Below are positions 17,291-42,172 of a stretch of 64,000 nucleotides of DNA, in pieces. The notes under the pieces were generated by a model that saw nothing but the letters and a program-made list of their open reading frames with translations, was not told where the DNA came from and did no database searches. Each line of letters starts with the position of its first letter. The first letter of the stretch is position 1. The stretch comes from Escherichia phage LinBro, in sequence record OR896830.1. One strand, 5' to 3'. Both the position numbers and the translations under genes were made by a program.

Positions 17291-18331
17291 ATGGAGAAGT
17301 ACACATTAACAAAGCTTCCCGATTCAGTTACACATGTCTTTATTGACTCTGACAGCATTGCCTATAAAGGTGCTTGTGTAGTTGAGAAAGCAAAGTATAA
17401 ATACGTTAATAAACTCACCGCAGAAGAATCTGAGCCATTTGATAATGCAAAAGATGCTGCAAGATGGTTAGCAGACCAGAGAATCCTTGTAGAAGAGCTT
17501 GGCCTAGCATTTGATGAAGATGAATGGGAAAGACAGACTTGGAAAGAAGCTAAGAGTGAAAAAGAAGCTATCATGGCTACTCAGCAGGTTCTTCAGGAAT
17601 GGCTTAAGGTTGTTGGTAAAGAAAGAACTTGGGTAGGTTATTTAACAGAGAAGGGCGTGCATAAACATAAAGACATTAAAGGTCTTGAGCACCAATATCA
17701 AGGTAACCGTAAAGATGCTGTCACACCAACACACTTAGTTGCTTGTCGTGAATACCTTCTGTCAAGACCAGAGTTCAAACTGATTCTTGATGGATTTGAA
17801 GCCGACTCTATCGTTATTGCTAAAGCTGAAAAGATGGGTAAAAAGGCTGCCTTGATGAGTATTGATAAAGACCTTCGCCAAGCTGAAGGGACTTACTGCA
17901 TTGATATGACCTATGAGAAGTCACCTTTGATTTTCATTGCTGACAACAACGTAGGTGAAATTTGGGATTGCCCAATAAAATCAACACCAAAAGCTAAGAA
18001 GACAGTTGGTGTAGGTTTTAAATTCCTTTGTTATCAAGCTGTGGCTGGTGACAATGCTGATAATTATTTTGGTTTAAAGGGCGTTGGTAAGGCTACTGTA
18101 ATGAAAGCCCTTGAAGGTAAAACCACTTACAAAGAGTGTCTTGATGCAATTTATGAGCTTTATGCTAAGAAAGAGTCATACACTTATGTCTCGTGGGATG
18201 GTCAAACAATTACCAGAACACCTTTAGAGTTAATGCAGCAACACTTTTTCTTAGCTTATCAGGAAAGAAACAAGAAAGACGATTTCACTTTTAAGAAATA
18301 TAATTGGGAGCCGTGTATGAATGAAGATTAA
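17291..18331 (+). CDS. 5'-3' exonuclease / flap endonuclease
   Basis: H3TH-like GDNADNYFGLKGVGKAT and N-terminal acidic DSDSIAYK cluster. Confidence 0.65.
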   Translation: MEKYTLTKLPDSVTHVFIDSDSIAYKGACVVEKAKYKYVNKLTAEESEPFDNAKDAARWLADQRILVEELGLAFDEDEWERQTWKEAKSEKEAIMATQQVLQEWLKVVGKERTWVGYLTEKGVHKHKDIKGLEHQYQGNRKDAVTPTHLVACREYLLSRPEFKLILDGFEADSIVIAKAEKMGKKAALMSIDKDLRQAEGTYCIDMTYEKSPLIFIADNNVGEIWDCPIKSTPKAKKTVGVGFKFLCYQAVAGDNADNYFGLKGVGKATVMKALEGKTTYKECLDAIYELYAKKESYTYVSWDGQTITRTPLELMQQHFFLAYQERNKKDDFTFKKYNWEPCMNED

Positions 18332-18818
18332 AGGATTTGGCAATTGCCCCACCTACGGTCATTGGGTATCTTTATGTGGGGAAGTTGACCCCACTAAACA
18401 TTTTGGCTTTGTCTACCTAGTGTACTGCAAAAAGACTGGACAGTATTATTTGGGTAAAAAACAGCTTAACAGTGTGACCAAAAGAAAAGTTGCTGGGAAG
18501 ACTCGGAAGAAGGTAGTCACTAAGGAGAGTGATTGGATGACTTACGAGACTTCTTCTGAGTATATTAAAAAAGATATTGAGAGTTTTGGAAAAGAATTTT
18601 TTGACTTTTACATTATTCAGACCTACTACACAAAAGGTGGCCTAGTCTATGGTGAAGCAAACCTTCAACATAAATTCGATGTAATGACAAAAAGGATTGA
18701 CTCTAAGCTCAGACTCTTCTACAATGCCAATATTGCAGCAATTAAGTTTATCACTAAAGAAACTTATGAAGATGCTGAAAAAAGAATCCATAAGGTCATG
18801 AAAGCAAATTGTGCTTGA
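18321..18818 (+). CDS. GIY-YIG-like nuclease
   Basis: FVYLVYC...QYYLGKK resembles GIY-(10)-YIG spacing, with downstream Arg. Confidence 0.35.
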   Translation: MKIKGFGNCPTYGHWVSLCGEVDPTKHFGFVYLVYCKKTGQYYLGKKQLNSVTKRKVAGKTRKKVVTKESDWMTYETSSEYIKKDIESFGKEFFDFYIIQTYYTKGGLVYGEANLQHKFDVMTKRIDSKLRLFYNANIAAIKFITKETYEDAEKRIHKVMKANCA

Positions 18819-24604: not shown

Positions 24605-25804
24605 ATGAACAAAGTACAGATTATTAAAAAGAATGGCTCACTTGAAGAACCCGATATCAAAAAAGTTTTAGCAGCAGTAACTAAGTCAGCTAACAGGGTT
24701 GGATATAAAGAACTTCCACCAGATGTTACCCAAGCTCTTGAGTCAGCATTTATGAGGATTCTGGTAAAGTCCACTAAGCAGAATAATTTGCTCATCTCGG
24801 TAAATGATATTCACAGTATTGTTGAGGGTGCTTTGGCAGAAGTCAATCACGAGATTTATGAGTCTTACTCAACATATAGAAATTACCGTAAAGAGGTTGC
24901 TCAAAATTGGGACGAGCTTTACCAAAAGACTAGGGATACACTCTTCTTAGGTGACCGTGAAAATGCTAACTTTGACAGTAGTTTAATTTCTACAAAAGGC
25001 TCAATTATTCGTGGTTACTTGACTAAAGAAATCTTTAAACAGTACCATTTAACACCAGAGGAACTTGAAGCCATTGAAAAAGGGTTTATCTACATCCATG
25101 ACTTAAGAGACCTAATTTTTGGTGGTATCAACTGTTGCCTGTTTGACATCGGCAAAGTACTGAAAGGTGGCTTTGAAATGTCTGGTATCGAATACTGTGA
25201 ACCAAAGTCTGTGCTGTCAGCCTTACAGGTTATTGGTGATGTAGTTCTTTCAGCAACTGCACAGCAATTTGGTGGCTTTACTTTAGCAGAGATTGATAAG
25301 GTACTTGTGCCGTATGCTAAAAAATCTTTAGTGTACCACTCAGAGAAAGCTGAAGAGTACGGAATCCCTAAAGAGCAACACTATAATTACGTAATGGAGC
25401 AATTACAGAATGAGTTAACACAAGGTTTCCAATCTCTTGAAATGAAACTCAACACTGTTCCTTGCAGTCGCGGTGATTTTGCATTTACTACTCTGACATT
25501 TGGCCTGTTGGAACCAGATATGCACAATGAAGATAACCGTCTTCAGTTTATGATTGCTAATACAATCCTTAATGTAAGGATGAACGGGCAAGGGAAAAGC
25601 AAAAAACCTGTTGTTTTTCCTAAACTTGTGTATATCTATGAAGAGACAAGACATAAACTTGATGTATGCCAAGCAAGGTTGTTTGAAAAAGCTATTGAGT
25701 GTTGCTCTAAAGCGATGTATCCAGATTTCTTAAGTGTATCTGGTCATGGTGCTGTAGCAGATGCTTTTGAGCGTTCTGGTAAGGTGATTTCACCGATGGG
25801 TTAA
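24605..25804 (+). CDS. nrdD: anaerobic ribonucleotide reductase, N-terminal segment
   Basis: ATP-cone-like N-terminus; ORF terminates without the Zn ribbon and glycyl-radical region, which resume downstream. Confidence 0.8.
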   Translation: MNKVQIIKKNGSLEEPDIKKVLAAVTKSANRVGYKELPPDVTQALESAFMRILVKSTKQNNLLISVNDIHSIVEGALAEVNHEIYESYSTYRNYRKEVAQNWDELYQKTRDTLFLGDRENANFDSSLISTKGSIIRGYLTKEIFKQYHLTPEELEAIEKGFIYIHDLRDLIFGGINCCLFDIGKVLKGGFEMSGIEYCEPKSVLSALQVIGDVVLSATAQQFGGFTLAEIDKVLVPYAKKSLVYHSEKAEEYGIPKEQHYNYVMEQLQNELTQGFQSLEMKLNTVPCSRGDFAFTTLTFGLLEPDMHNEDNRLQFMIANTILNVRMNGQGKSKKPVVFPKLVYIYEETRHKLDVCQARLFEKAIECCSKAMYPDFLSVSGHGAVADAFERSGKVISPMG

Positions 25805-26522
25805 CAAGCTCTATAGCTCATCTAAAACGTGCCTAAACAGGGAAACTCTACAGATGTAGACAATCCTGTGCTAAATGATGTACGATGTAAGAAACTATAC
25901 AACATAGGAGTCTTACATGCCAAACTATCACGTCACTGAAGATGGAAAAGTCTTTAGGGAAAATGGTGTAGAGCTTACGCAGTGGAAATCCAACACTGGG
26001 TATATGAAAGTGAGGTTTTACGGTAAGAAGAATCGTGACATGTATGTCCACAGGTTAGTTGCTGAGAAATATGTACCTAACCCGAACAATCTTCCAATTG
26101 TAAAACATAAGGACGATAACAAACTAAATAACCACGTATCTAACTTAGAATGGGGTACTCATTCTGATAATGCTAAAGAAGGTTATGAGAATGGATGTTA
26201 CAAGTTCCACAAGCGTTCATATGCCGTGAAAGCCACACACAAAGTGACAAAGGAAGTTATTGTTACTAAGTCAATACGAGAGTTATCCAATATACTTGGA
26301 TACAATCGCAAGACCATCTCTTCAATATTGAAGGGTGTAAAAGAGCATAATAACTTCGAATATGAGTTTGAATACATCTAAATGCCGAACGACTAACCGT
26401 GATGAATGTAGCGGTGTAGGGTCAAGCGACTCGAAATGGTACGCTACTTAGAAATAAGTAGAAGATATAGTCTGGACTTACTGGCGACAGTAAGCAGCTT
26501 GAATAAAGCGGGGTAAGCTTAG
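25790..26522 (+). mobile_element. intervening sequence in nrdD (group I intron-like) carrying HNH endonuclease
   Basis: Splits nrdD between two ORFs; downstream frame open from 26523; HNH ORF inside; boundaries approximate. Confidence 0.55.
25917..26381 (+). CDS. HNH homing endonuclease
   Basis: VHRLVAE...VKHKDDNKLNNHVSNLEWGTHSDN HNH_3-type motif. Confidence 0.75.
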   Translation: MPNYHVTEDGKVFRENGVELTQWKSNTGYMKVRFYGKKNRDMYVHRLVAEKYVPNPNNLPIVKHKDDNKLNNHVSNLEWGTHSDNAKEGYENGCYKFHKRSYAVKATHKVTKEVIVTKSIRELSNILGYNRKTISSILKGVKEHNNFEYEFEYI

Positions 26523-27491
26523 CGAACTTACCTGAACAATAAGTGTAGAGCATTTTTATCACCATACCATAACGAATATGGTGAAGAGTTTTATGTAGGT
26601 CGTGCTAACATTGGTGCTGTATCTTTGAACTTACCAATGATTTACCAGTATTCTAAAGAGAATGGTTTAGATTTCTGGAAAGAGCTTGATAAGTACCTAG
26701 AGATGATTCGCAGCTTCCACAAGAAACGCTACGAAATGATTGCTAATATGCCAGCAAGCTCTAACCCTCTTGCATTCACACAAGGTGGCCTGTACAAAGG
26801 GACTAAGAAATCTACCGACAAGGTTGGCTGGGATATCGTGAAGTCCTTCACAGCTTCTTTTGGAGTTACTGCGCTTGATGAGCTATCTGTTCTTGCTGAA
26901 GGTAAACGACTTCATGAAGTTGGGAGCTATAGTTTTGCATACGATGTTCTGGCATACATCAACATGAAAACTGAAGAGTTTAAAAATGAAGATGGCTTCT
27001 TATATGCTGTCTATGGTACTCCAGCAGAATCACTTTGTGGAACTCAACTAAAACAGTTCAGAGAAATGTTTGGTGTTATCAAAGGTGTTTCTGACAAGGA
27101 ATACTTTACAAACAGTTTCCATATGAATGTTGCAGCAGACATCTCACCATTTGAGAAGCAGGACTTAGAAGAGCCATTCTTCCATATCTGTAGAGGTGGC
27201 AGAATCCAGTATGTCAGGGTAGCTAACCCAGAAAACTTAACAGCACTTAAGAGTTGTATTACAAGAGGGATGTTGAAAGGTTTTTATCAGGGACTTAACT
27301 TTGACCTAGCAATTTGTGAGCATTGTGGTAGCAGACCAAAGGCTGATGTTGAAGAATGTGAGGTTTGCCATTCACATGACATCTCTGTGATTAACAGGGT
27401 GTGCGGATATCTGGGATGGACTAAGATTAAAGGTGAATCCCGAATGAATGATGCAAAAATCGCTGAGATTCGTGACAGGATTTCTATGTAA
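26523..27491 (+). CDS. nrdD: anaerobic ribonucleotide reductase, C-terminal segment
   Basis: Zn ribbon CEHCGS...CEVCHS and glycyl-radical-like RVCGYLG near C-terminus; no canonical start, frame open from 26523. Confidence 0.8.
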   Translation, partial: RTYLNNKCRAFLSPYHNEYGEEFYVGRANIGAVSLNLPMIYQYSKENGLDFWKELDKYLEMIRSFHKKRYEMIANMPASSNPLAFTQGGLYKGTKKSTDKVGWDIVKSFTASFGVTALDELSVLAEGKRLHEVGSYSFAYDVLAYINMKTEEFKNEDGFLYAVYGTPAESLCGTQLKQFREMFGVIKGVSDKEYFTNSFHMNVAADISPFEKQDLEEPFFHICRGGRIQYVRVANPENLTALKSCITRGMLKGFYQGLNFDLAICEHCGSRPKADVEECEVCHSHDISVINRVCGYLGWTKIKGESRMNDAKIAEIRDRISM

Positions 27492-30193: not shown

Positions 30194-30464
30194 AGAGAAG
30201 TGGGAGATTTTACCATTAGTCAGTGAAGGCGGTAATGGTTGTGAAATGTACATGATACGTGGGCATGTTCCAGAACCAATTGCACTTGAGATGGTAAACA
30301 ACTTTACAGATGGCTCTTACAAAGACTTAGGGGAGCCAAATATAAAGCAGCAATGGGTAAAGCCTGTACCAGACAGCACAGGTAACTGTAGTGTACTTTA
30401 TCACGTTGTAGACCCTGCAAAATGCAAATCTGCAATGGCAGTAACAAACGTAACTTTTGATTGA
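30186..30464 (+). CDS. hypothetical protein
   Basis: 92-aa ORF. Confidence 0.4.
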   Translation: MAKEKWEILPLVSEGGNGCEMYMIRGHVPEPIALEMVNNFTDGSYKDLGEPNIKQQWVKPVPDSTGNCSVLYHVVDPAKCKSAMAVTNVTFD

Positions 30465-30475
30465 GAGAGAAAACT

Positions 30476-31357
30476 ATGAAAACTGTTATTGAAGCCGTCG
30501 TCACCGCTCAAGAGAAATTCTTCCACACAGAAAAATTTAATATCATTCAATTCCCATCTGGAGAAATTGGTGGAAACTTCTCTGAAGATTTTGTTAAGTT
30601 TACTGAGCGTAATGCTGGTAAGATTGATAATGTTATAATTACTGTACAGGGATATGACAAAGATACACTGTTTGCATTAGCTTTGGCTAAGGATGCCGTT
30701 GACAGTCTTGTTCCCCAGAAATCAGCGATGAAAACCGTTGTTTTCGGGTTCTTACCAAATGCTCGATATGACCGCCACATGTTCAAAGGTGATGCAGCAG
30801 CACTGAAAGCCTTTGCCAACCTAGTTAATGCAATGGGTTTTGATGCAGTATGTGCTCTTGACCCTCACAGTAATGTTGCAGAAAACTTATTTAAGTGCTT
30901 TCAAAGCATGAAGCAAAAAGATGTGGCAGTACACTTTGCAAGTGACCCACGCATTGATTTCTTGGTAGCCCCAGATGCAGGTGCAGCTAAGAAGACTGAA
31001 GATACCGCTAAAGAGGTGGATAAGCCGTATATCACAATGTCTAAGGTGCGCAATCTTAAGACTGGAGAAATCACTGGTATGCGAATCCTTGACGATGTTG
31101 ATTTGACCGATAAAACTGTCATGATTCTTGATGATATCTGTGATGGTGGTCGAACATTCGTAGAGGCAGCTAAACACCTACGTGAAGCAGGTGCAAAACG
31201 TGTGGAACTCTATGTAACTCATGGTATTTTCTCTAAAGGTGTTGAAAACTTACTTGACAACGGTATTGACCATATCTACACTACAAACACTTTAGGCGAA
31301 GCTAAAGACCGTGGCTTAACACATTATGGTCAAGTTACTGTAGCAAACATTGATTAG
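30476..31357 (+). CDS. ribose-phosphate pyrophosphokinase-like protein (Prs family)
   Basis: PRPP-binding type motif MILDDICDGGRTF; start moved from TTG to first ATG. Confidence 0.65.
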   Translation: MKTVIEAVVTAQEKFFHTEKFNIIQFPSGEIGGNFSEDFVKFTERNAGKIDNVIITVQGYDKDTLFALALAKDAVDSLVPQKSAMKTVVFGFLPNARYDRHMFKGDAAALKAFANLVNAMGFDAVCALDPHSNVAENLFKCFQSMKQKDVAVHFASDPRIDFLVAPDAGAAKKTEDTAKEVDKPYITMSKVRNLKTGEITGMRILDDVDLTDKTVMILDDICDGGRTFVEAAKHLREAGAKRVELYVTHGIFSKGVENLLDNGIDHIYTTNTLGEAKDRGLTHYGQVTVANID

Positions 31358-31365
31358 GTAACAGT

Positions 31366-31857
31366 ATGAATAAGGGTTATTTTGAAAGATACCTAATATA
31401 TGAACCAGATACAGGTTTATTAATTTGGAGAGTAACCCTTTGCAGTACCGCTATTGCTGGTAATGTGGCTGGCACAAGGTCTAAGAAGGGTTATATCCAA
31501 GTCCAGATAAATAAGAAGAGGTACTATGCACATAATATTGCATGGATTATGTCTGGAGGTGAGATACCAAGTGGATATGAGATAGACCACATAGACCTTG
31601 ATAAATCTAATAATAAGTTGGAGAATTTAAGACTTAGCACAAAGTCACAAAATCAGAGGAATAGGGGTATATACAAGAATAATAAAACTGGTGTGAAGGG
31701 TGTAAGTTTTTGTAAACAAACAGGTCTTTACAAAGCAAGAGTCATGCTTTACCATAAAGAATACTTTTGTGGAAGATTTAAAACGGTAGAAGAAGCAAAA
31801 GAAGCTGTAATTAAAAAGCGAATAGAACTTCATGGTGAGTTTGCAAGACATAACTAA
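31366..31857 (+). CDS. HNH homing endonuclease with AP2-like DNA-binding domain
   Basis: YAHNIAW...EIDHIDLDKSNNKLENLRL HNH core then GVKGVSF...GLYKARV AP2-like segment. Confidence 0.8.
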   Translation: MNKGYFERYLIYEPDTGLLIWRVTLCSTAIAGNVAGTRSKKGYIQVQINKKRYYAHNIAWIMSGGEIPSGYEIDHIDLDKSNNKLENLRLSTKSQNQRNRGIYKNNKTGVKGVSFCKQTGLYKARVMLYHKEYFCGRFKTVEEAKEAVIKKRIELHGEFARHN

Positions 31858-31871
31858 GAGAGAGGTAAAAT

Positions 31872-33653
31872 ATGAGTAAGTCACTTTACGCAGTACCAGC
31901 AGGTCTTAATGCAGATGCTTACAAGGCATCACATATATATCAGTATCCAGATGCTACGCAATATCTTATGTTGAACCTGACACCACGTAGTGATAAATGG
32001 TTTAACAGCCCCTTAGCAATTGACGGTGTAGTAGCTTTTGGTATTCAACGTTTCGTTAAAGATTACTTGATAGACCATTGGAATGCTACGTTCTTTGAAC
32101 GTGACAAAAAAGAAGCAATTGACGAAATCTTAGAAGTCATGAATGGTGTTCTGGGCAAAGATGCTATCGGTCGAGAGCATTGGGAGGCACTTCACGACTT
32201 AGGTTATCTACCAGTTGAAGTATACGCTGTAGAAGAAGGCACAGTTGTCCCTATGCGTGTTCCGATGATTGTTTTCCAGAACACTGTTTCAGGTTTCCAT
32301 TGGGTAGCAGGTTATCTGGAAGATGCTTTCTCTGCTGAGATTTGGAAGGCTTGTACCATTGCAACTATTGCATTGCACTACAAACGTATCTGTAAGAAGT
32401 GGGCTGACCTTACTTGTGACAACGACTTGCATTTGCCTTATCAGTGCCATGACTTTGCTATGCGTGGTATGTCCGGCTTTACTGATGACGCATTTAACGC
32501 TGTAGGCCACTTAACCAGCTTTAAAGGAACTGATAGCTTCCCTGCTGTGTATACGGCTAAACGAATCTATGGACAGTCCTACCCAATCTCTGATATTGGT
32601 AGCTCTGTACCAGCCACTGAGCACTCTGTAATGTGTGCAAACATTGCTTGGGAAGGTGGTAATGAGTTGATTGAAGAAGAAAGACGCTTTAAAGGTGAGT
32701 TACAGACCTTCCGTCGTTTCTTAACAGAAACTTACCCAACTGGTATTGCAAGTATTGTTTCAGACACTTATAACTTCTGGAGAACTGTGTCAGAAATCTT
32801 ACCAGCACTTCGTAAAGAAATTATGGAACGTGATGGTAAGCTGGTAATTCGCCCTGACTCTGGAGACCCTGTACATATTGTCACAGGCTATAAAGCAATC
32901 CACTTAGAGTGTGCTAAGAAGGCTTATTATGAGCACCTAAGCAAGCTGGAAGCTAGTGACACAATGTTGAATGCTGTTCTGAACATGAAGCTTGAAAACA
33001 TCAACTATGGTATTGCTGGATGGCTACTGTCAGAAGGCTACGAAATGGTTGTTGACAGAGAAGACTTTGAAGTTGCTGATACAGTGATGTTGAAAAATGC
33101 TTATATGGTTGGCTCTGCAAACGTTGTAACACGTCCTGTAGCAGAGATTGATGGAGCTATTAAGACCCTGTACAACATCTTCGGAGGGACTATTAACTCT
33201 AAAGGGTTTAAGGTACTGGATGAGCACATCGGCCTTATCTATGGTGACTCTATCACGCTGGAACGTGCAAACGAAATCCTGAAGCGTCTGTATGAAATGG
33301 GTTTTGCAAGCTCTAACGTAGTGTTTGGTGTAGGCTCTTACACTTACCAGTACATGACTCGCGACACCTTTGCATTTGCTGTCAAAGCAACTCTTGCAAG
33401 CATTGGTGGTAAAGAGATTATGCTTGCAAAAGACCCTAAAACAGATAGTGGTGTTAAGAAATCTGCCTTTGGTGGTGTAGCACCTATGTGGGATGGTGAT
33501 AAGCTGAAAGCTGTAGATGGCTATGGATTCCAGAGTTTTGCAGATGTACTTGACCACCAAGCTTGTGCTTTACGTTTAGTCTTTAGCGACTCTGAGCAGT
33601 TCGGTTATACAACTCTTGGAGATATTCGAAATAATATTGACAAGCAGCTTTAA
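31872..33653 (+). CDS. nicotinamide phosphoribosyltransferase family protein
   Basis: 593 aa; judged Nampt/NadV-like from overall resemblance, no single diagnostic motif verified. Confidence 0.6.
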   Translation: MSKSLYAVPAGLNADAYKASHIYQYPDATQYLMLNLTPRSDKWFNSPLAIDGVVAFGIQRFVKDYLIDHWNATFFERDKKEAIDEILEVMNGVLGKDAIGREHWEALHDLGYLPVEVYAVEEGTVVPMRVPMIVFQNTVSGFHWVAGYLEDAFSAEIWKACTIATIALHYKRICKKWADLTCDNDLHLPYQCHDFAMRGMSGFTDDAFNAVGHLTSFKGTDSFPAVYTAKRIYGQSYPISDIGSSVPATEHSVMCANIAWEGGNELIEEERRFKGELQTFRRFLTETYPTGIASIVSDTYNFWRTVSEILPALRKEIMERDGKLVIRPDSGDPVHIVTGYKAIHLECAKKAYYEHLSKLEASDTMLNAVLNMKLENINYGIAGWLLSEGYEMVVDREDFEVADTVMLKNAYMVGSANVVTRPVAEIDGAIKTLYNIFGGTINSKGFKVLDEHIGLIYGDSITLERANEILKRLYEMGFASSNVVFGVGSYTYQYMTRDTFAFAVKATLASIGGKEIMLAKDPKTDSGVKKSAFGGVAPMWDGDKLKAVDGYGFQSFADVLDHQACALRLVFSDSEQFGYTTLGDIRNNIDKQL

Positions 33654-40739: not shown

Positions 40740-40941
40740 AAAGACACGGAAAATTATCCGGTCAGCAGTATTTATTGGAAGAAATGAAGTGATTCCTTTT
40801 ACAGCAAATGATGTGATAGTCTACAGGAAAAAATTAGCATTCAGTTATTGCTTACGTGGCTTTATCTCCCAGCCATTAGAAGATTTTAAAAATCGTTGTG
40901 GTAAAGGCATCATCATTCAAGAGGCAATTATTCATGGCTGA
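40714..40941 (+). CDS. hypothetical protein
   Basis: 75-aa ORF. Confidence 0.35.
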   Translation: MKVILARDKKTRKIIRSAVFIGRNEVIPFTANDVIVYRKKLAFSYCLRGFISQPLEDFKNRCGKGIIIQEAIIHG

Positions 40942-41134
40942 CTTCTGCAAAGACTGTGCTATCGAGATGTTTGGGCGTGATACAGGTGATTTAAAAGGTC
41001 TTATCACTGAAGATGACTTTAAAGCTGGCTACGCAATGCCAGTAATCTGTGAAGGTTGTGGGTGCATCTGGGTAGACCACGAAGGACAGCGTGTAAAACC
41101 TTCAGAAGATAAAGAGTCTTGGGAGAGATGTTAA
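40934..41134 (+). CDS. hypothetical Cys-rich protein
   Basis: ORF 40898..41134 trimmed to ATG (MADFCKDC); CxxC...CEGCGC. Confidence 0.35.
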   Translation: MADFCKDCAIEMFGRDTGDLKGLITEDDFKAGYAMPVICEGCGCIWVDHEGQRVKPSEDKESWERC

Positions 41135-41920
41135 ATGGGTATTGTAAAAATAATCAATGGTGATATCTTTGCCGCATTTGATAAAGGTAAGTTTGACATC
41201 ATCGGTCACGGTTGCAACTGTATGAATTTAATGGGTGCAGGTATCGCTGACAAGATTTCTAAACTTTACCCAAAAGCATATGAGACCGATACAGAAGTTT
41301 ATCTATATGCAGGTGGTATAGGACACAAGCCCTGTGAAAATTTACTAGGCAATTTCTCTGTAGCACGTTTAGAACAAGGCCGTATAGCTAACCTTTACAC
41401 TCAGCTTAAGACTGGTAAAGATGCCCGATACAGTGCTTTAGAATCATCTTTGAAACAGCTTAACAGATACTGTGAAGTTAACCAGTTGAAGAAAGTTGGT
41501 CTACCTATGATTGGTGCAGGTATCGGTGGGCTAGACCCTCAAGCCGTCACAGTTATCATTAATCAGGTGATGAAGAGTGTAGATGTGTATCTGTATGTCT
41601 ATGAAGGAGAGATGTACCACAAGTTACGCTCAGGTTGGAAGAACTACTGTGAACCAGAATACTTTGCAGGTGTAGTAACGTTCACAGACAATACAGTTAC
41701 CCTCTTCAGACGAAGAAAAGGTAAGATACATCAAAGTAACCCTCCGGTTGAAAAGATGTCTCTGAGTAACGCTCTAGTTACCCACCTGTCGAAGAGCAAT
41801 CACAGAATTGCAGTAACATTTGGCAGTGATGCAGATACTTATATCTATGCAAGGACTGATGAGGGTATTGAGTTAATCTTCTCTTCACCAGAGCTTACCT
41901 TCTTAGACGCAAAGAACTAA
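41135..41920 (+). CDS. Macro-domain protein (ADP-ribose binding or hydrolysing)
   Basis: N-terminal IINGDIF...DIIGHGCNC...MGAGIA matches macro-domain GDIT..D.IVNAAN..GGG pattern. Confidence 0.55.
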   Translation: MGIVKIINGDIFAAFDKGKFDIIGHGCNCMNLMGAGIADKISKLYPKAYETDTEVYLYAGGIGHKPCENLLGNFSVARLEQGRIANLYTQLKTGKDARYSALESSLKQLNRYCEVNQLKKVGLPMIGAGIGGLDPQAVTVIINQVMKSVDVYLYVYEGEMYHKLRSGWKNYCEPEYFAGVVTFTDNTVTLFRRRKGKIHQSNPPVEKMSLSNALVTHLSKSNHRIAVTFGSDADTYIYARTDEGIELIFSSPELTFLDAKN

Positions 41921-41990
41921 GAAATTTCGTAGTATATTCACAATAGACTAAGCCTTTCTTATCTGGTAAATTTTTCAGGTAAGGAGGGCT

Positions 41991-42172
41991 TTTTCATTTC
42001 AGATTTGTGCAGGTAGAGTTCTGTAGAGAAATCTGTAGAGAGAATTTTAAACTCCAAAGAGAAAATTCATTTTCAAACTGTGCAGGTAATCTCCAAAGAG
42101 CTTTTTCATTTTCAAAACGTGCAGACCCCGCTCAGGTCGGGCAAGAAAAATCATTTTAGAATTGTGCAGGTA
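41991..42172 (+). repeat. four direct repeats TCATTTT(N3-6)GTGCAGGTA
   Basis: Copies near 41991, 42066, 42104 and 42149; a related TTTTGTGCAGAG follows the rIIB terminator at about 37830. Confidence 0.5.

What the first reader, a model, noticed from the sequence alone, without database searches (positions are those of the whole stretch)
41135..41920. Macro-domain protein at the end of the replication block
N-terminal INGDIF...DIIGHGCNC...MGAGIA fits the macro-domain fold. The ~100-aa C-terminal extension has no recognisable motif. Could reverse ADP-ribosylation or process NAD+-derived signals.
Basis: partly seen in the sequence, partly recalled or inferred. Interest (0 to 1): 0.5.

Follow-up and report, generated by a model that had tools for sequence, protein, structure and literature searches.

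The report
Phage macrodomain enzyme with orphan C-domain
This Felix O1-like phage gene encodes an ADP-ribose-removing (macrodomain) enzyme related to a phage T4 protein that defeats a bacterial DNA-ADP-ribosylating defence, fused to a fast-evolving extra domain with no known relatives; the enzyme part is ordinary and already annotated, while the extra domain and a recurring link to NAD-rebuilding genes are open leads.

Summary
ORF 41135-41920 (+, 261 aa) is a real gene found in essentially all Felix O1-like phages (Ounavirinae). Residues 1-157 are a macrodomain: Pfam Macro is above its cutoff, the AlphaFold model is confident, and the nearest solved folds are TARG1, DarG and Poa1p. It belongs to the Tk.4 / Poa1p-like subfamily (PHROG 335, usually labelled "phosphatase"). 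A 2025 preprint named the T4 member (tk.4) AdfM because deleting it makes T4 sensitive to the DarTG2 defence. The subfamily keeps DarG's active-site Asn (N28) and Poa1p's His (H25), but an invariant Gln (Q90) replaces the catalytic Lys of DarG and TARG1. Residues ~168-261 form a folded, mostly β domain. It occurs only fused to this macrodomain, matches no solved or viral predicted fold, and diverges about twice as fast as the enzyme part. Best explanation: an early counter-defence ADP-ribosyl hydrolase that reverses DarT2-type DNA ADP-ribosylation (confidence 0.42). Main rival: it serves the phage NAD+-rebuilding pathway NARP1. Adps-Namat-macro gene triplets occur in two other phage genera and in one bacterial NrtR operon, and NARP1 lies 7.5 kb upstream here. 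Verdict: a new variant of a known kind, of moderate interest.

The parts
41135..41920 (+). Complete CDS, 261 aa: macrodomain plus C-terminal domain (stop codon included)
   Evidence: ORF list; PHROG 335 E 1.9e-111 over aa 1-260; 99.2% identical to phage Barry BARRY_0010
41121..41127 (+). Shine-Dalgarno-like GGGAGAG, 7 nt before the ATG. The upstream ORF's TAA (41132-41134) abuts the ATG (41135-41137).
   Evidence: Read directly from the sequence; inference
41135..41605 (+). Macrodomain, aa 1-157, Tk.4 / Poa1p-like subfamily
   Evidence: Pfam Macro above cutoff; 35% identity, E 8e-25, to RB32 Tk.4 over its whole length; profile hits to TARG1 1e-16, Mtb DarG 5e-16, Poa1p 2e-14; Foldseek
41207..41242 (+). 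H25-G-C-N28-C ... M33-G34-A35-G36: ligand-binding and catalytic loop 1. N28 aligns with DarG N22 and PhiKZ AdfM N23; H25 aligns with Poa1p H23.
   Evidence: Invariant columns; alignments; residue roles from PMC13309987
41390..41404 (+). N86-L-Y-T-Q90. Invariant Gln90 occupies the position of the catalytic Lys of DarG (K80), TARG1 (K84) and PhiKZ AdfM (K78).
   Evidence: Alignments; invariant in 31/31 and 9/9 family members; K80 role from PMC11543638
41504..41521 (+). P124-M-I-G127-A-G129: glycine-rich diphosphate-binding loop 2
   Evidence: Invariant columns
41606..41635 (+). Connecting helix, aa 158-167
   Evidence: DSSP on the AF2 model
41636..41917 (+). C-terminal beta-rich domain, aa ~168-261 (six strands plus one helix), an orphan fold specific to this lineage
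   Evidence: AF2; the two C-domain clades are homologous (hhalign 96.5%, E 7.7e-10); no PDB fold match; BFVD finds only the SUSP2 ortholog; the profile search of 1.84e9 proteins finds only the same fusion
41950..42000 (+). Terminator-like hairpin (17-bp stem, 8-nt loop) followed by a T-run; ends the rightward gene cluster
   Evidence: Consensus scan; the annotators of phage Barry marked the same element as a terminator
30461..31357 (+). Context: Adps (Prs-like), first enzyme of the NARP1 NAD+-reconstitution pathway
   Evidence: PHROG 619; Bas63 genes 79-80 in preprint 10.1101/2024.02.11.579819
31872..33653 (+). Context: Namat (Nampt-like), second NARP1 enzyme
   Evidence: PHROG 448, E 4e-202; >=95% identical in about 210 Felixounavirus records

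Best explanation
The gene encodes a counter-defence ADP-ribosyl hydrolase of the Tk.4/AdfM (Poa1p-like) macrodomain subfamily. It is the last gene of the long rightward replication, nucleotide-metabolism and anti-defence cluster. The macrodomain holds the ADP-ribose moiety in the cleft formed by the two glycine-rich loops (M33-G-A-G36 and P124-x-I-G-A-G129). Using N28 and H25, it cleaves the bond at the ribose C1'' that links ADP-ribose to its carrier, releasing free ADP-ribose. The most likely carrier is thymidine in single-stranded phage DNA modified by DarT2-type toxins, so the enzyme would restore replication of ADP-ribosylated phage DNA, as proposed for T4 Tk.4. The fast-evolving C-terminal domain is an accessory module. 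It may target the enzyme to its substrate or to a host protein, by analogy with the DarT2-binding C-terminal domain of DarG. Shown here: domain identity, fold, conserved residues, subfamily membership and genomic position. Inferred: catalytic activity, the substrate, and any role for the C-domain.
For: Macrodomain identity. Homology with Tk.4 over its whole length with all signature motifs shared. A clean tk.4 knockout sensitises T4 to DarTG2, and tk.4 was the only significant hit in the transposon screen (bioRxiv 10.1101/2025.11.20.689424). DarG is the only model hit in both PADLOC and NCBIfam, and the window protein scores higher (47.5 bits) than Tk.4 itself (33.4 bits). DarG's active-site Asn is conserved as N28, and the equivalent N23A mutation reduces activity in PhiKZ AdfM. 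Human TARG1, the closest solved fold, is reported to protect against DarT2 activity (PMC11543638). The gene lies in a cluster containing proven or proposed anti-defence genes: NARP1, and rIIA/B as proposed by PhageMaP. The two-part design (macrodomain plus a second domain) parallels DarG. The C-domain diverges about twice as fast as the macrodomain, as might be expected of a surface involved in an arms race.
Against: The catalytic Lys that is critical in DarG (K80), and is also present in TARG1 and PhiKZ AdfM, is an invariant Gln here. No enzyme of this subfamily has been assayed on ADP-ribosylated DNA; the T4 evidence is genetic only and comes from a preprint. The window protein is only 35% identical to Tk.4 and is equally distant from the NARP1-linked macro proteins, so orthology is not established. 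Cellular members of the subfamily are stand-alone genes with no DarT partner. The H-x-C-N-C motif is shared with Poa1p, which acts on a small molecule. The C-domain shows no similarity to DarG's C-terminal half and has no conserved charge. No Felixounavirus has been tested against DarTG2 in the papers I could search.
Confidence: 0.42

Rival explanations
1. The macrodomain is an accessory enzyme of the phage NAD+-reconstitution pathway NARP1 (Adps + Namat). It would hydrolyse soluble ADP-ribose derivatives back to free ADP-ribose, the substrate of Adps. Candidates are ADPR-1''-phosphate, derived from the ADPR-cyclic-phosphate that forms spontaneously from the NARP1 intermediate ADPR-PP, and O-acetyl-ADPR. 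This would prevent loss of the ADPR pool when NAD+-depleting defences fire.
For: Adps-x-Namat-Macro are directly adjacent and co-oriented in Pakpunavirus phage EM and in Saclayvirus B09_Aci01-1, where the macro start overlaps the Namat stop. A bacterial operon prs-nadV-macro-x-nrtR exists in a Cocleimonas MAG, and macro-prs adjacency in a second MAG. In the window and in Kolesnikvirus, NARP1 lies 7.5-10 kb upstream on the same strand in the same cluster. The subfamily shares H-x-C-N-C, including the His the depositors mutated (H23A), with Poa1p, an ADPR-1''-phosphate phosphatase, and lacks the Lys used by the DNA and protein de-ADP-ribosylases. ADPR-cyclic-phosphate was observed as a NARP1 by-product in Bas63 infection. 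Cellular homologs are stand-alone genes in conserved chromosomal positions with no toxin partner.
Against: Many carriers of Tk.4-type macro genes have no NARP1 gene within 5-8 kb: RB32 (T4-type), Lazarusvirus, Phapecoctavirus, Kuttervirus and Seunavirus. Only 2 of 80 bacterial loci encode an Adps- or Namat-like gene; neighbours were clustered for 61 of them. In the window the genes are not adjacent. The NARP1-linked macro proteins are closer to each other (36-47%) than to the window protein (30-36%). The NARP1 paper reconstitutes the pathway with two genes and never mentions a macrodomain. The idea does not explain the T4 tk.4 phenotype on DarTG2. Pakpunavirus and Saclayvirus may share the module by descent, which lowers the number of independent observations.
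Confidence: 0.25
2. It is the classical 'phosphatase' of its database label: an ADP-ribose-1''-phosphate phosphatase that clears by-products of RNA repair. It would work alongside the phage's PNK-like phosphatase and RNA ligases against host anticodon nucleases.
For: The Poa1p-like motif. A PNK-like gene lies 2 kb upstream in the window and in all Ounavirinae relatives examined. Tk.4 sits next to PseT and RnlA in Vibrio phage nt-1. RNA ligase genes lie within 1-3 kb of the macro gene in Seunavirus, Pakpunavirus and Saclayvirus. Iyer et al. 2022 list ADPr-1''P from KptA-2H RNA repair as a macrodomain substrate.
Against: PNK/ligase repair of the T4 type does not generate ADPR-1''-phosphate; that requires a KptA/Tpt1 2'-phosphotransferase (my own knowledge of the pathway). 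None was seen next to any homolog or among the window ORFs I scanned. Poa1p S30 is not conserved (L32). The co-location may only reflect the usual clustering of early genes.
Confidence: 0.1
3. It degrades or sequesters ADP-ribose-derived immune signals (Thoeris gcADPR or His-ADPR), or it removes ADP-ribose from RNA or protein targets of other ART-based defences such as CmdTAC.
For: Macrodomains bind such molecules; for example the Thoeris II effector ThsA binds His-ADPR through a macrodomain. Iyer et al. argue that phage macrodomains mainly target soluble ADPr derivatives. The gene lies in an anti-defence neighbourhood.
Against: There is no direct evidence for this subfamily. The known anti-Thoeris and anti-CBASS proteins belong to other folds (my own knowledge). 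The CmdTAC paper reports no macrodomain counter-defence. In T4, tk.4 was picked up specifically with DarTG2.
Confidence: 0.1
4. It is a catalytically dead ADP-ribose binder, with the Lys-to-Gln change inactivating it, and acts as a sponge or sensor. The C-domain would be the real effector.
For: The catalytic Lys of the nearest characterised hydrolases is absent, and non-catalytic macrodomains exist.
Against: Gln90, N28 and both Gly loops are invariant across phage, bacterial and archaeal members at 30-40% identity. Poa1p, which is catalytically active, also lacks the Lys and shares the H-x-C-N-C motif. Most family members have no C-domain at all.
Confidence: 0.08

Closest known systems
Phage T4 Tk.4 = AdfM (anti-DarT factor Macrodomain; bioRxiv 10.1101/2025.11.20.689424)
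   Same: Same macrodomain subfamily (PHROG 335). 35% identity, E 8e-25, over all of Tk.4. Shares HGCNC, MG(A/S)G, NLYTQ and P-x-IGAGIG, including Gln in place of the catalytic Lys. Both are early-region genes of large lytic myoviruses of enterobacteria.
   Different: Tk.4 is a single 155-aa domain, whereas the window protein carries an extra ~95-aa C-terminal domain. Identity is too low to establish orthology. The anti-DarTG2 phenotype is shown for T4 only.
DarG antitoxin of DarTG2 (T. aquaticus / M. tuberculosis; PDB 5M3E, 5M3I)
   Same: Macrodomain fold (TM 0.74-0.78). Profile E 5e-16. The only PADLOC and NCBIfam hit. Active-site Asn conserved. Two-domain design with an enzyme followed by an accessory C-terminal domain.
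   Different: Catalytic K80 is replaced by Gln90. The score of 47.7 bits is far below the 250-bit equivalog cutoff. The C-terminal domains are unrelated (DarG model positions ~147-338 are unmatched). There is no adjacent DarT.
PhiKZ gp104 AdfM (chimallivirus DarG2-like macrodomain; PMC13309987)
   Same: A phage-encoded orphan macrodomain. It is proven biochemically to remove DarT2 ADP-ribose from DNA, and it shares the Asn.
   Different: A different lineage: truly DarG-like (132.9 bits to the DarG model against 47.5 bits), retains the Lys (K78), is a single domain, and is imported into the phage nucleus.
Human TARG1/OARD1 (PDB 4J5S)
   Same: Closest solved fold and sequence (TM 0.85; profile E 1e-16). 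It is reported to protect against DarT2 activity.
   Different: TARG1's K84 and D125 positions are Gln90 and Gly here. TARG1 lacks the Asn (Ser at that position) and has no C-domain.
Yeast Poa1p, ADP-ribose-1''-phosphate phosphatase (PDB 6LFQ)
   Same: Shares the H-x-C-N-C...G-x-G-I-A segment, including the His that was mutated in 6LFS (H23 = H25). TM 0.75. Also lacks the Lys. It is the source of the 'phosphatase' and 'Macro_Poa1p_like' labels.
   Different: Poa1p S30 corresponds to L32 here. Poa1p is a eukaryotic tRNA-splicing housekeeping enzyme and has no C-domain.

Membership tests
Macro domain superfamily (Pfam PF01661) | HMM score above the curated gathering threshold | tested here: met
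   32.1 bits against a cutoff of 22, E 1.2e-7, aa 25-141
Macro domain superfamily (Pfam PF01661) | Three-layer alpha/beta/alpha macro fold | tested here: met
   AF2 pLDDT 89.4, pTM 0.88; Foldseek probability 1.00 with TM 0.74-0.85 to TARG1, DarG and Poa1p
Macro domain superfamily (Pfam PF01661) | Glycine-rich loops that bind the ADP-ribose diphosphate | tested here: met
   M33-G-A-G36 and P124-x-I-G127-A-G129 are invariant across the family
Tk.4 / T4-AdfM subfamily (PHROG 335, Macro_Poa1p_like) | End-to-end homology with Tk.4 and the shared signature HGCNC / NLYTQ / P-x-IGAGIG | tested here: met
   E 8e-25 over Tk.4 residues 2-152; PHROG 335 E 1.9e-111; signature columns
Tk.4 / T4-AdfM subfamily (PHROG 335, Macro_Poa1p_like) | Single-domain architecture of about 150-160 aa | tested here: not met
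   261 aa with an added folded C-domain. The PHROG 335 profile does cover it, so the variant is already inside that family.
Tk.4 / T4-AdfM subfamily (PHROG 335, Macro_Poa1p_like) | Protects the phage from DarTG2 | not testable with these tools
   Requires knockout and plaque assays. Shown only for T4.
DarG antitoxin (NCBIfam NF048014; PADLOC PDLC02990) | Equivalog-level score against the curated model | tested here: not met
   47.7 bits against a cutoff of 250; only the macro half of the model is matched
DarG antitoxin (NCBIfam NF048014; PADLOC PDLC02990) | Catalytic lysine (T. aquaticus K80) | tested here: not met
   Aligns with invariant Gln90
DarG antitoxin (NCBIfam NF048014; PADLOC PDLC02990) | Active-site asparagine (T. 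aquaticus N22) | tested here: met
   Aligns with invariant N28
DarG antitoxin (NCBIfam NF048014; PADLOC PDLC02990) | C-terminal DarT-binding domain and an adjacent darT gene | tested here: not met
   The C-domain does not match the C-terminal half of the DarG models. Flanking ORFs are small unknown proteins followed by a 500-bp gap.
TARG1/OARD1-type hydrolases | Catalytic K84 and D125 | tested here: not met
   K84 aligns with Gln90; D125 of G-C-G-L-D aligns with Gly in G-A-G-I-G
Poa1p-type ADPR-1''-phosphate phosphatases | H-x-C-N-C motif with the His mutated by the depositors (H23) | tested here: met
   IHSCNC aligns with GHGCNC; H23 = H25. H25 is not universal in the subfamily: it is Gln in Kolesnikvirus.
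Poa1p-type ADPR-1''-phosphate phosphatases | Ser30 | tested here: not met
   Aligns with L32, a variable column
Poa1p-type ADPR-1''-phosphate phosphatases | Phosphatase activity on ADPR-1''-phosphate | not testable with these tools
   Needs an enzyme assay
NARP1-linked macro module (Adps-Namat-Macro), proposed here | Macro gene directly adjacent to and co-oriented with Adps and Namat | tested here: inconclusive
   Adjacent in Pakpunavirus, Saclayvirus and one bacterial operon. In the window it is on the same strand and in the same cluster, but 7.5 kb and about 12 genes away.

The most novel reading that the evidence does not exclude
Tk.4-type macrodomains, including this one, could be an unrecognised third component of phage (and some bacterial) NAD+ reconstitution from ADP-ribose. 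They would return dead-end ADPR derivatives to free ADPR for Adps/Namat; candidates are ADPR-1''-phosphate or ADPR-cyclic-phosphate leaking from the ADPR-PP intermediate, O-acetyl-ADPR, and ADPR cleaved from modified DNA. One generalist enzyme would then both erase DarT2 damage and feed NARP1. The Ounavirinae-specific orphan C-domain could be a new toxin- or substrate-recognition module.
Probability: 0.2. Interest if true: 0.7.

Novelty: new variant of a known kind. Interest (0 to 1): 0.4.

Why it matters
Felix O1-like phages are widely used for Salmonella and E. coli biocontrol and therapy, and Bas63 is already the model for the NARP1 counter-defence. If this gene protects against DarTG2-type DNA ADP-ribosylation, it helps explain and predict host range. 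Two more general points follow. First, the whole Tk.4 subfamily, present in about 2,800 phage records and hundreds of bacterial genomes, lacks the catalytic lysine thought to be essential in DarG and TARG1. If these enzymes really hydrolyse thymidine-ADPr, they must use a different mechanism. Second, the recurring Adps-Namat-Macro gene module suggests that NAD+ reconstitution has an extra, untested enzymatic step. The C-terminal domain has no detectable relatives and is a clean target for structure and function work.

Tried and rejected

(2) Nucleic-acid binding by the C-domain. Its net charge ranges from -6 to +4 across homologs, so there is no support.

(3) The Cys-rich 66-aa ORF directly upstream as a conserved partner. 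It is not conserved next to the gene in the P0019 contig or in Kolesnikvirus, so I rejected it.

(4) A bacterial toxin partner. Neighbours of 61 bacterial homologs show only lineage-specific synteny (IleS/LspA, RpoC and others), with no DarT, KptA or sirtuin.

(5) A second macro gene in the window. None was found.

(6) Interface between the C-domain and the active site.

(7) Essentiality data for the Bas63 ortholog in PhageMaP. The gene is not mentioned in the text and no supplements are held.

(8) Using Ounavirinae relatives to separate macro from NARP1. Kolesnikvirus carries both in the same synteny, so the comparison is uninformative.

(9) Rfam on the downstream repeat region. Nothing significant.

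Full report
**What is there.** The motifs INGDIF, DIIGHGCNC and MGAGIA sit at aa 7-12, 21-29 and 33-38. A GGGAGAG Shine-Dalgarno-like element lies 7 nt upstream, and the previous ORF's TAA abuts the ATG. A strong terminator-like hairpin (17-bp stem plus a T-run) follows at 41950-41991. The annotators of the 99.2%-identical phage Barry marked the same element as a terminator.

The window is a Felixounavirus, a Felix O1-like myovirus of E. coli and Salmonella. tblastn finds the protein at >=80% coverage in 257 phage records. Those records label it variously as 'phosphatase', 'macro domain protein', 'O-acetyl-ADP-ribose deacetylase' or 'hypothetical protein'.

**The N-terminal domain.** Pfam Macro scores 32.1 bits against a cutoff of 22, and PHROG 335 ('phosphatase') matches the full length at E 1.9e-111. 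An AlphaFold2 model built on 31 homologs is confident (pLDDT 89.4, pTM 0.88). Foldseek places aa ~1-157 closest to human TARG1 (TM 0.85), the DarG macrodomains (0.74-0.78) and yeast Poa1p (0.75). A family profile gives the same three at E 1e-16, 5e-16 and 2e-14. In the defence-oriented libraries the only hit is DarG, restricted to its macro half, at 47.5-47.7 bits. That is far below NCBIfam's 250-bit equivalog cutoff.

**Subfamily and active site.** The domain aligns end to end with Tk.4 of the T4-type phage RB32 (35% identity, E 8e-25). Invariant positions across 31 homologs are H25, G26, N28, C29, G36, A38, P46, G72, N86, T89, Q90, P124, G127 and G129. I took the DarG, PhiKZ gp104 and TARG1 sequences from tool output and aligned them.

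- N28 corresponds to T. aquaticus DarG N22 and PhiKZ AdfM N23, named as active-site residues in PMC13309987.
- The lysine reported as critical for DarG catalysis (K80; PMC11543638), which aligns with K84 of TARG1 and K78 of PhiKZ AdfM, is replaced by the invariant Gln90.
- The same Gln is present in Tk.4 and in every bacterial and phage member I aligned.
- The H-x-C-N-C segment is shared with Poa1p, and H25 aligns with the H23 that the Poa1p depositors mutated. Poa1p S30 is not conserved.

The protein is therefore a macrodomain and a member of the Tk.4 / Poa1p-like subfamily. It fails the membership tests for DarG and for TARG1.

**What is known about the subfamily.** A 2025 preprint (10.1101/2025.11.20.689424) found tk.4 as the single T4 gene depleted in a transposon library on DarTG2-expressing cells. 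A clean knockout became DarTG2-sensitive, and the gene was named adfM. No biochemistry was reported. Independently, the name AdfM was given to PhiKZ gp104, which removes DarT2-installed ADP-ribose from DNA in vitro (PMC13309987). That protein is a genuine DarG-like lineage: it keeps the lysine and scores 132.9 bits on the DarG model. I found nothing in the searchable literature about the Felixounavirus protein.

**The C-terminal domain.** Residues ~168-261, after a connecting helix at 158-167, fold as six β-strands plus one helix. The domain is conserved in two deeply diverged clades that are demonstrably homologous (hhalign probability 96.5%, E 7.7e-10). These span Felixounavirus, the Michonne and SUSP2 types, Pectobacterium phages Wc4 and Arno18, and uncultured relatives. 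Kolesnikvirus also has a 260-aa version.

**Genomic context.** The gene closes a ~30-kb co-directional cluster. In order, the cluster contains:

- dNMP kinase, primase/helicase, exonuclease, a 'NAD synthetase'-family ORF and MazG
- NrdA/B and NrdD/G
- Adps (30461-31357), an HNH endonuclease and Namat (31872-33653)
- rIIA, rIIB, a PNK-like phosphatase, spanins and small ORFs
- the macro gene

Adps and Namat are the NARP1 pathway, shown in the Felixounavirus Bas63 (genes 79-80) to rebuild NAD+ from ADP-ribose and nicotinamide and to overcome SIR2-HerA. ADPR-cyclic-phosphate was seen as a by-product of the ADPR-PP intermediate. The order rIIA-rIIB-...-PNK-...-macro is kept even in the most divergent relatives, and Kolesnikvirus keeps NARP1 upstream as well.

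**A recurring link with NARP1.** The genome scan kept 80 bacterial and archaeal loci encoding HGCNC-type macrodomains. I clustered the neighbours for the 61 in which the macro ORF could be called, and they show only lineage-specific synteny, with no DarT, KptA or sirtuin partner. Two of the 80 loci are exceptions. A Cocleimonas MAG carries prs-like, nadV-like, macro, an unknown gene and NrtR in a row. A second MAG has macro followed by a prs-like gene.

Among phages, Adps-x-Namat-Macro are directly adjacent in Pakpunavirus EM, where Adps is mis-annotated as 'baseplate protein', and in Saclayvirus B09_Aci01-1. No NARP1 gene lies within 5-8 kb of the macro gene in RB32, Lazarusvirus, Phapecoctavirus, Kuttervirus or Seunavirus. 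In Vibrio phage nt-1, Tk.4 is next to PseT and RnlA.

The NARP1-adjacent macro proteins are 36-47% identical to each other. The window protein is 30-36% identical to them and 35% identical to Tk.4, so it cannot be assigned to either group by sequence.

**Interpretation.** I commit to a counter-defence ADP-ribosyl hydrolase acting like T4 Tk.4/AdfM on DarT2-modified DNA (confidence 0.42), because that is the only direct functional evidence for the subfamily. The main rival (0.25) is a role in ADPR and NAD+ recycling with NARP1. It is supported by gene adjacency in independent contexts and by the Poa1p-like, lysine-less active site. The two are not exclusive: a generalist enzyme of the TARG1 kind would release free ADP-ribose, which is exactly the substrate of Adps. 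Lesser rivals are an RNA-repair by-product phosphatase, degradation of immune signals or de-ADP-ribosylation of RNA or protein, and a non-catalytic binder.

**Verdict.** The enzyme domain is ordinary and already annotated. The lineage-specific orphan C-domain, the lysine-less active site and the NARP1 association make it a new variant of a known kind with moderate interest (0.4).

Noticed in passing
window 41985-42169: Four direct repeats of ~28-38 nt (core TTCATTTYMRANNTGTGCAG) lie in the 500-bp non-coding gap right after the macro gene's terminator. There are 7 matches at <=3 mismatches against 0.72 expected, and the four good ones are all here. No Rfam match. They could be regulator-binding sites or a promoter array at the start of the small-gene early region.
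   Followed up: partly
window 30461-31357, 31366-31857, 31872-33653: The NARP1 pair (Adps, Prs-like; Namat, Nampt-like), known from Bas63 genes 79-80, is interrupted here by an HNH homing-endonuclease ORF sitting between the two genes.
   Followed up: partly
window 24605-25804, 25917-26381, 26625-27491: The anaerobic ribonucleotide reductase NrdD is split into two ORFs by an HNH endonuclease gene, as expected for a homing-endonuclease, intron-type insertion.
   Followed up: no
L086 2150-5480 (Pseudomonas phage EM) and L094 4901-8471 (Acinetobacter phage B09_Aci01-1): A conserved four-gene module, Adps-like, small ORF, Namat, Tk.4-type macro, preceded by RNA ligase genes. In phage EM the Adps-like gene is annotated as 'baseplate protein', which looks like a mis-annotation (38.6% identity to the window Adps, E 2e-45).
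   Followed up: partly
L071 1589-6195 (Cocleimonas sp. MAG contig JAKIUW010000029.1): A bacterial operon prs-like, nadV-like, Tk.4-type macro, unknown 337-aa protein, NrtR (NUDIX plus NrtR winged helix). It places this macrodomain subfamily inside an NAD-salvage gene cluster that includes an NrtR-family regulator.
   Followed up: partly
window 18321-18818: A 165-aa ORF matches PHROG 447, 'NAD synthetase' (E 2e-47), inside the replication and nucleotide-metabolism block. It is also present in Kolesnikvirus (gp068). This is another possible NAD-related gene, and it is far too short for a canonical NAD synthetase.
   Followed up: no
window 40937-41134: A 66-aa Cys-rich protein (CxxC ... CxxCxC, PHROG 2210) whose stop codon abuts the macro start codon. 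It is conserved in Felixounavirus but is not next to the macro gene in divergent relatives.
   Followed up: yes
literature: The name AdfM has been given independently to two different macrodomain lineages. T4 Tk.4 is Poa1p-like with Gln at the catalytic Lys position. PhiKZ gp104 is DarG-like and keeps the Lys. Annotation transfer between them could mislead.
   Followed up: yes
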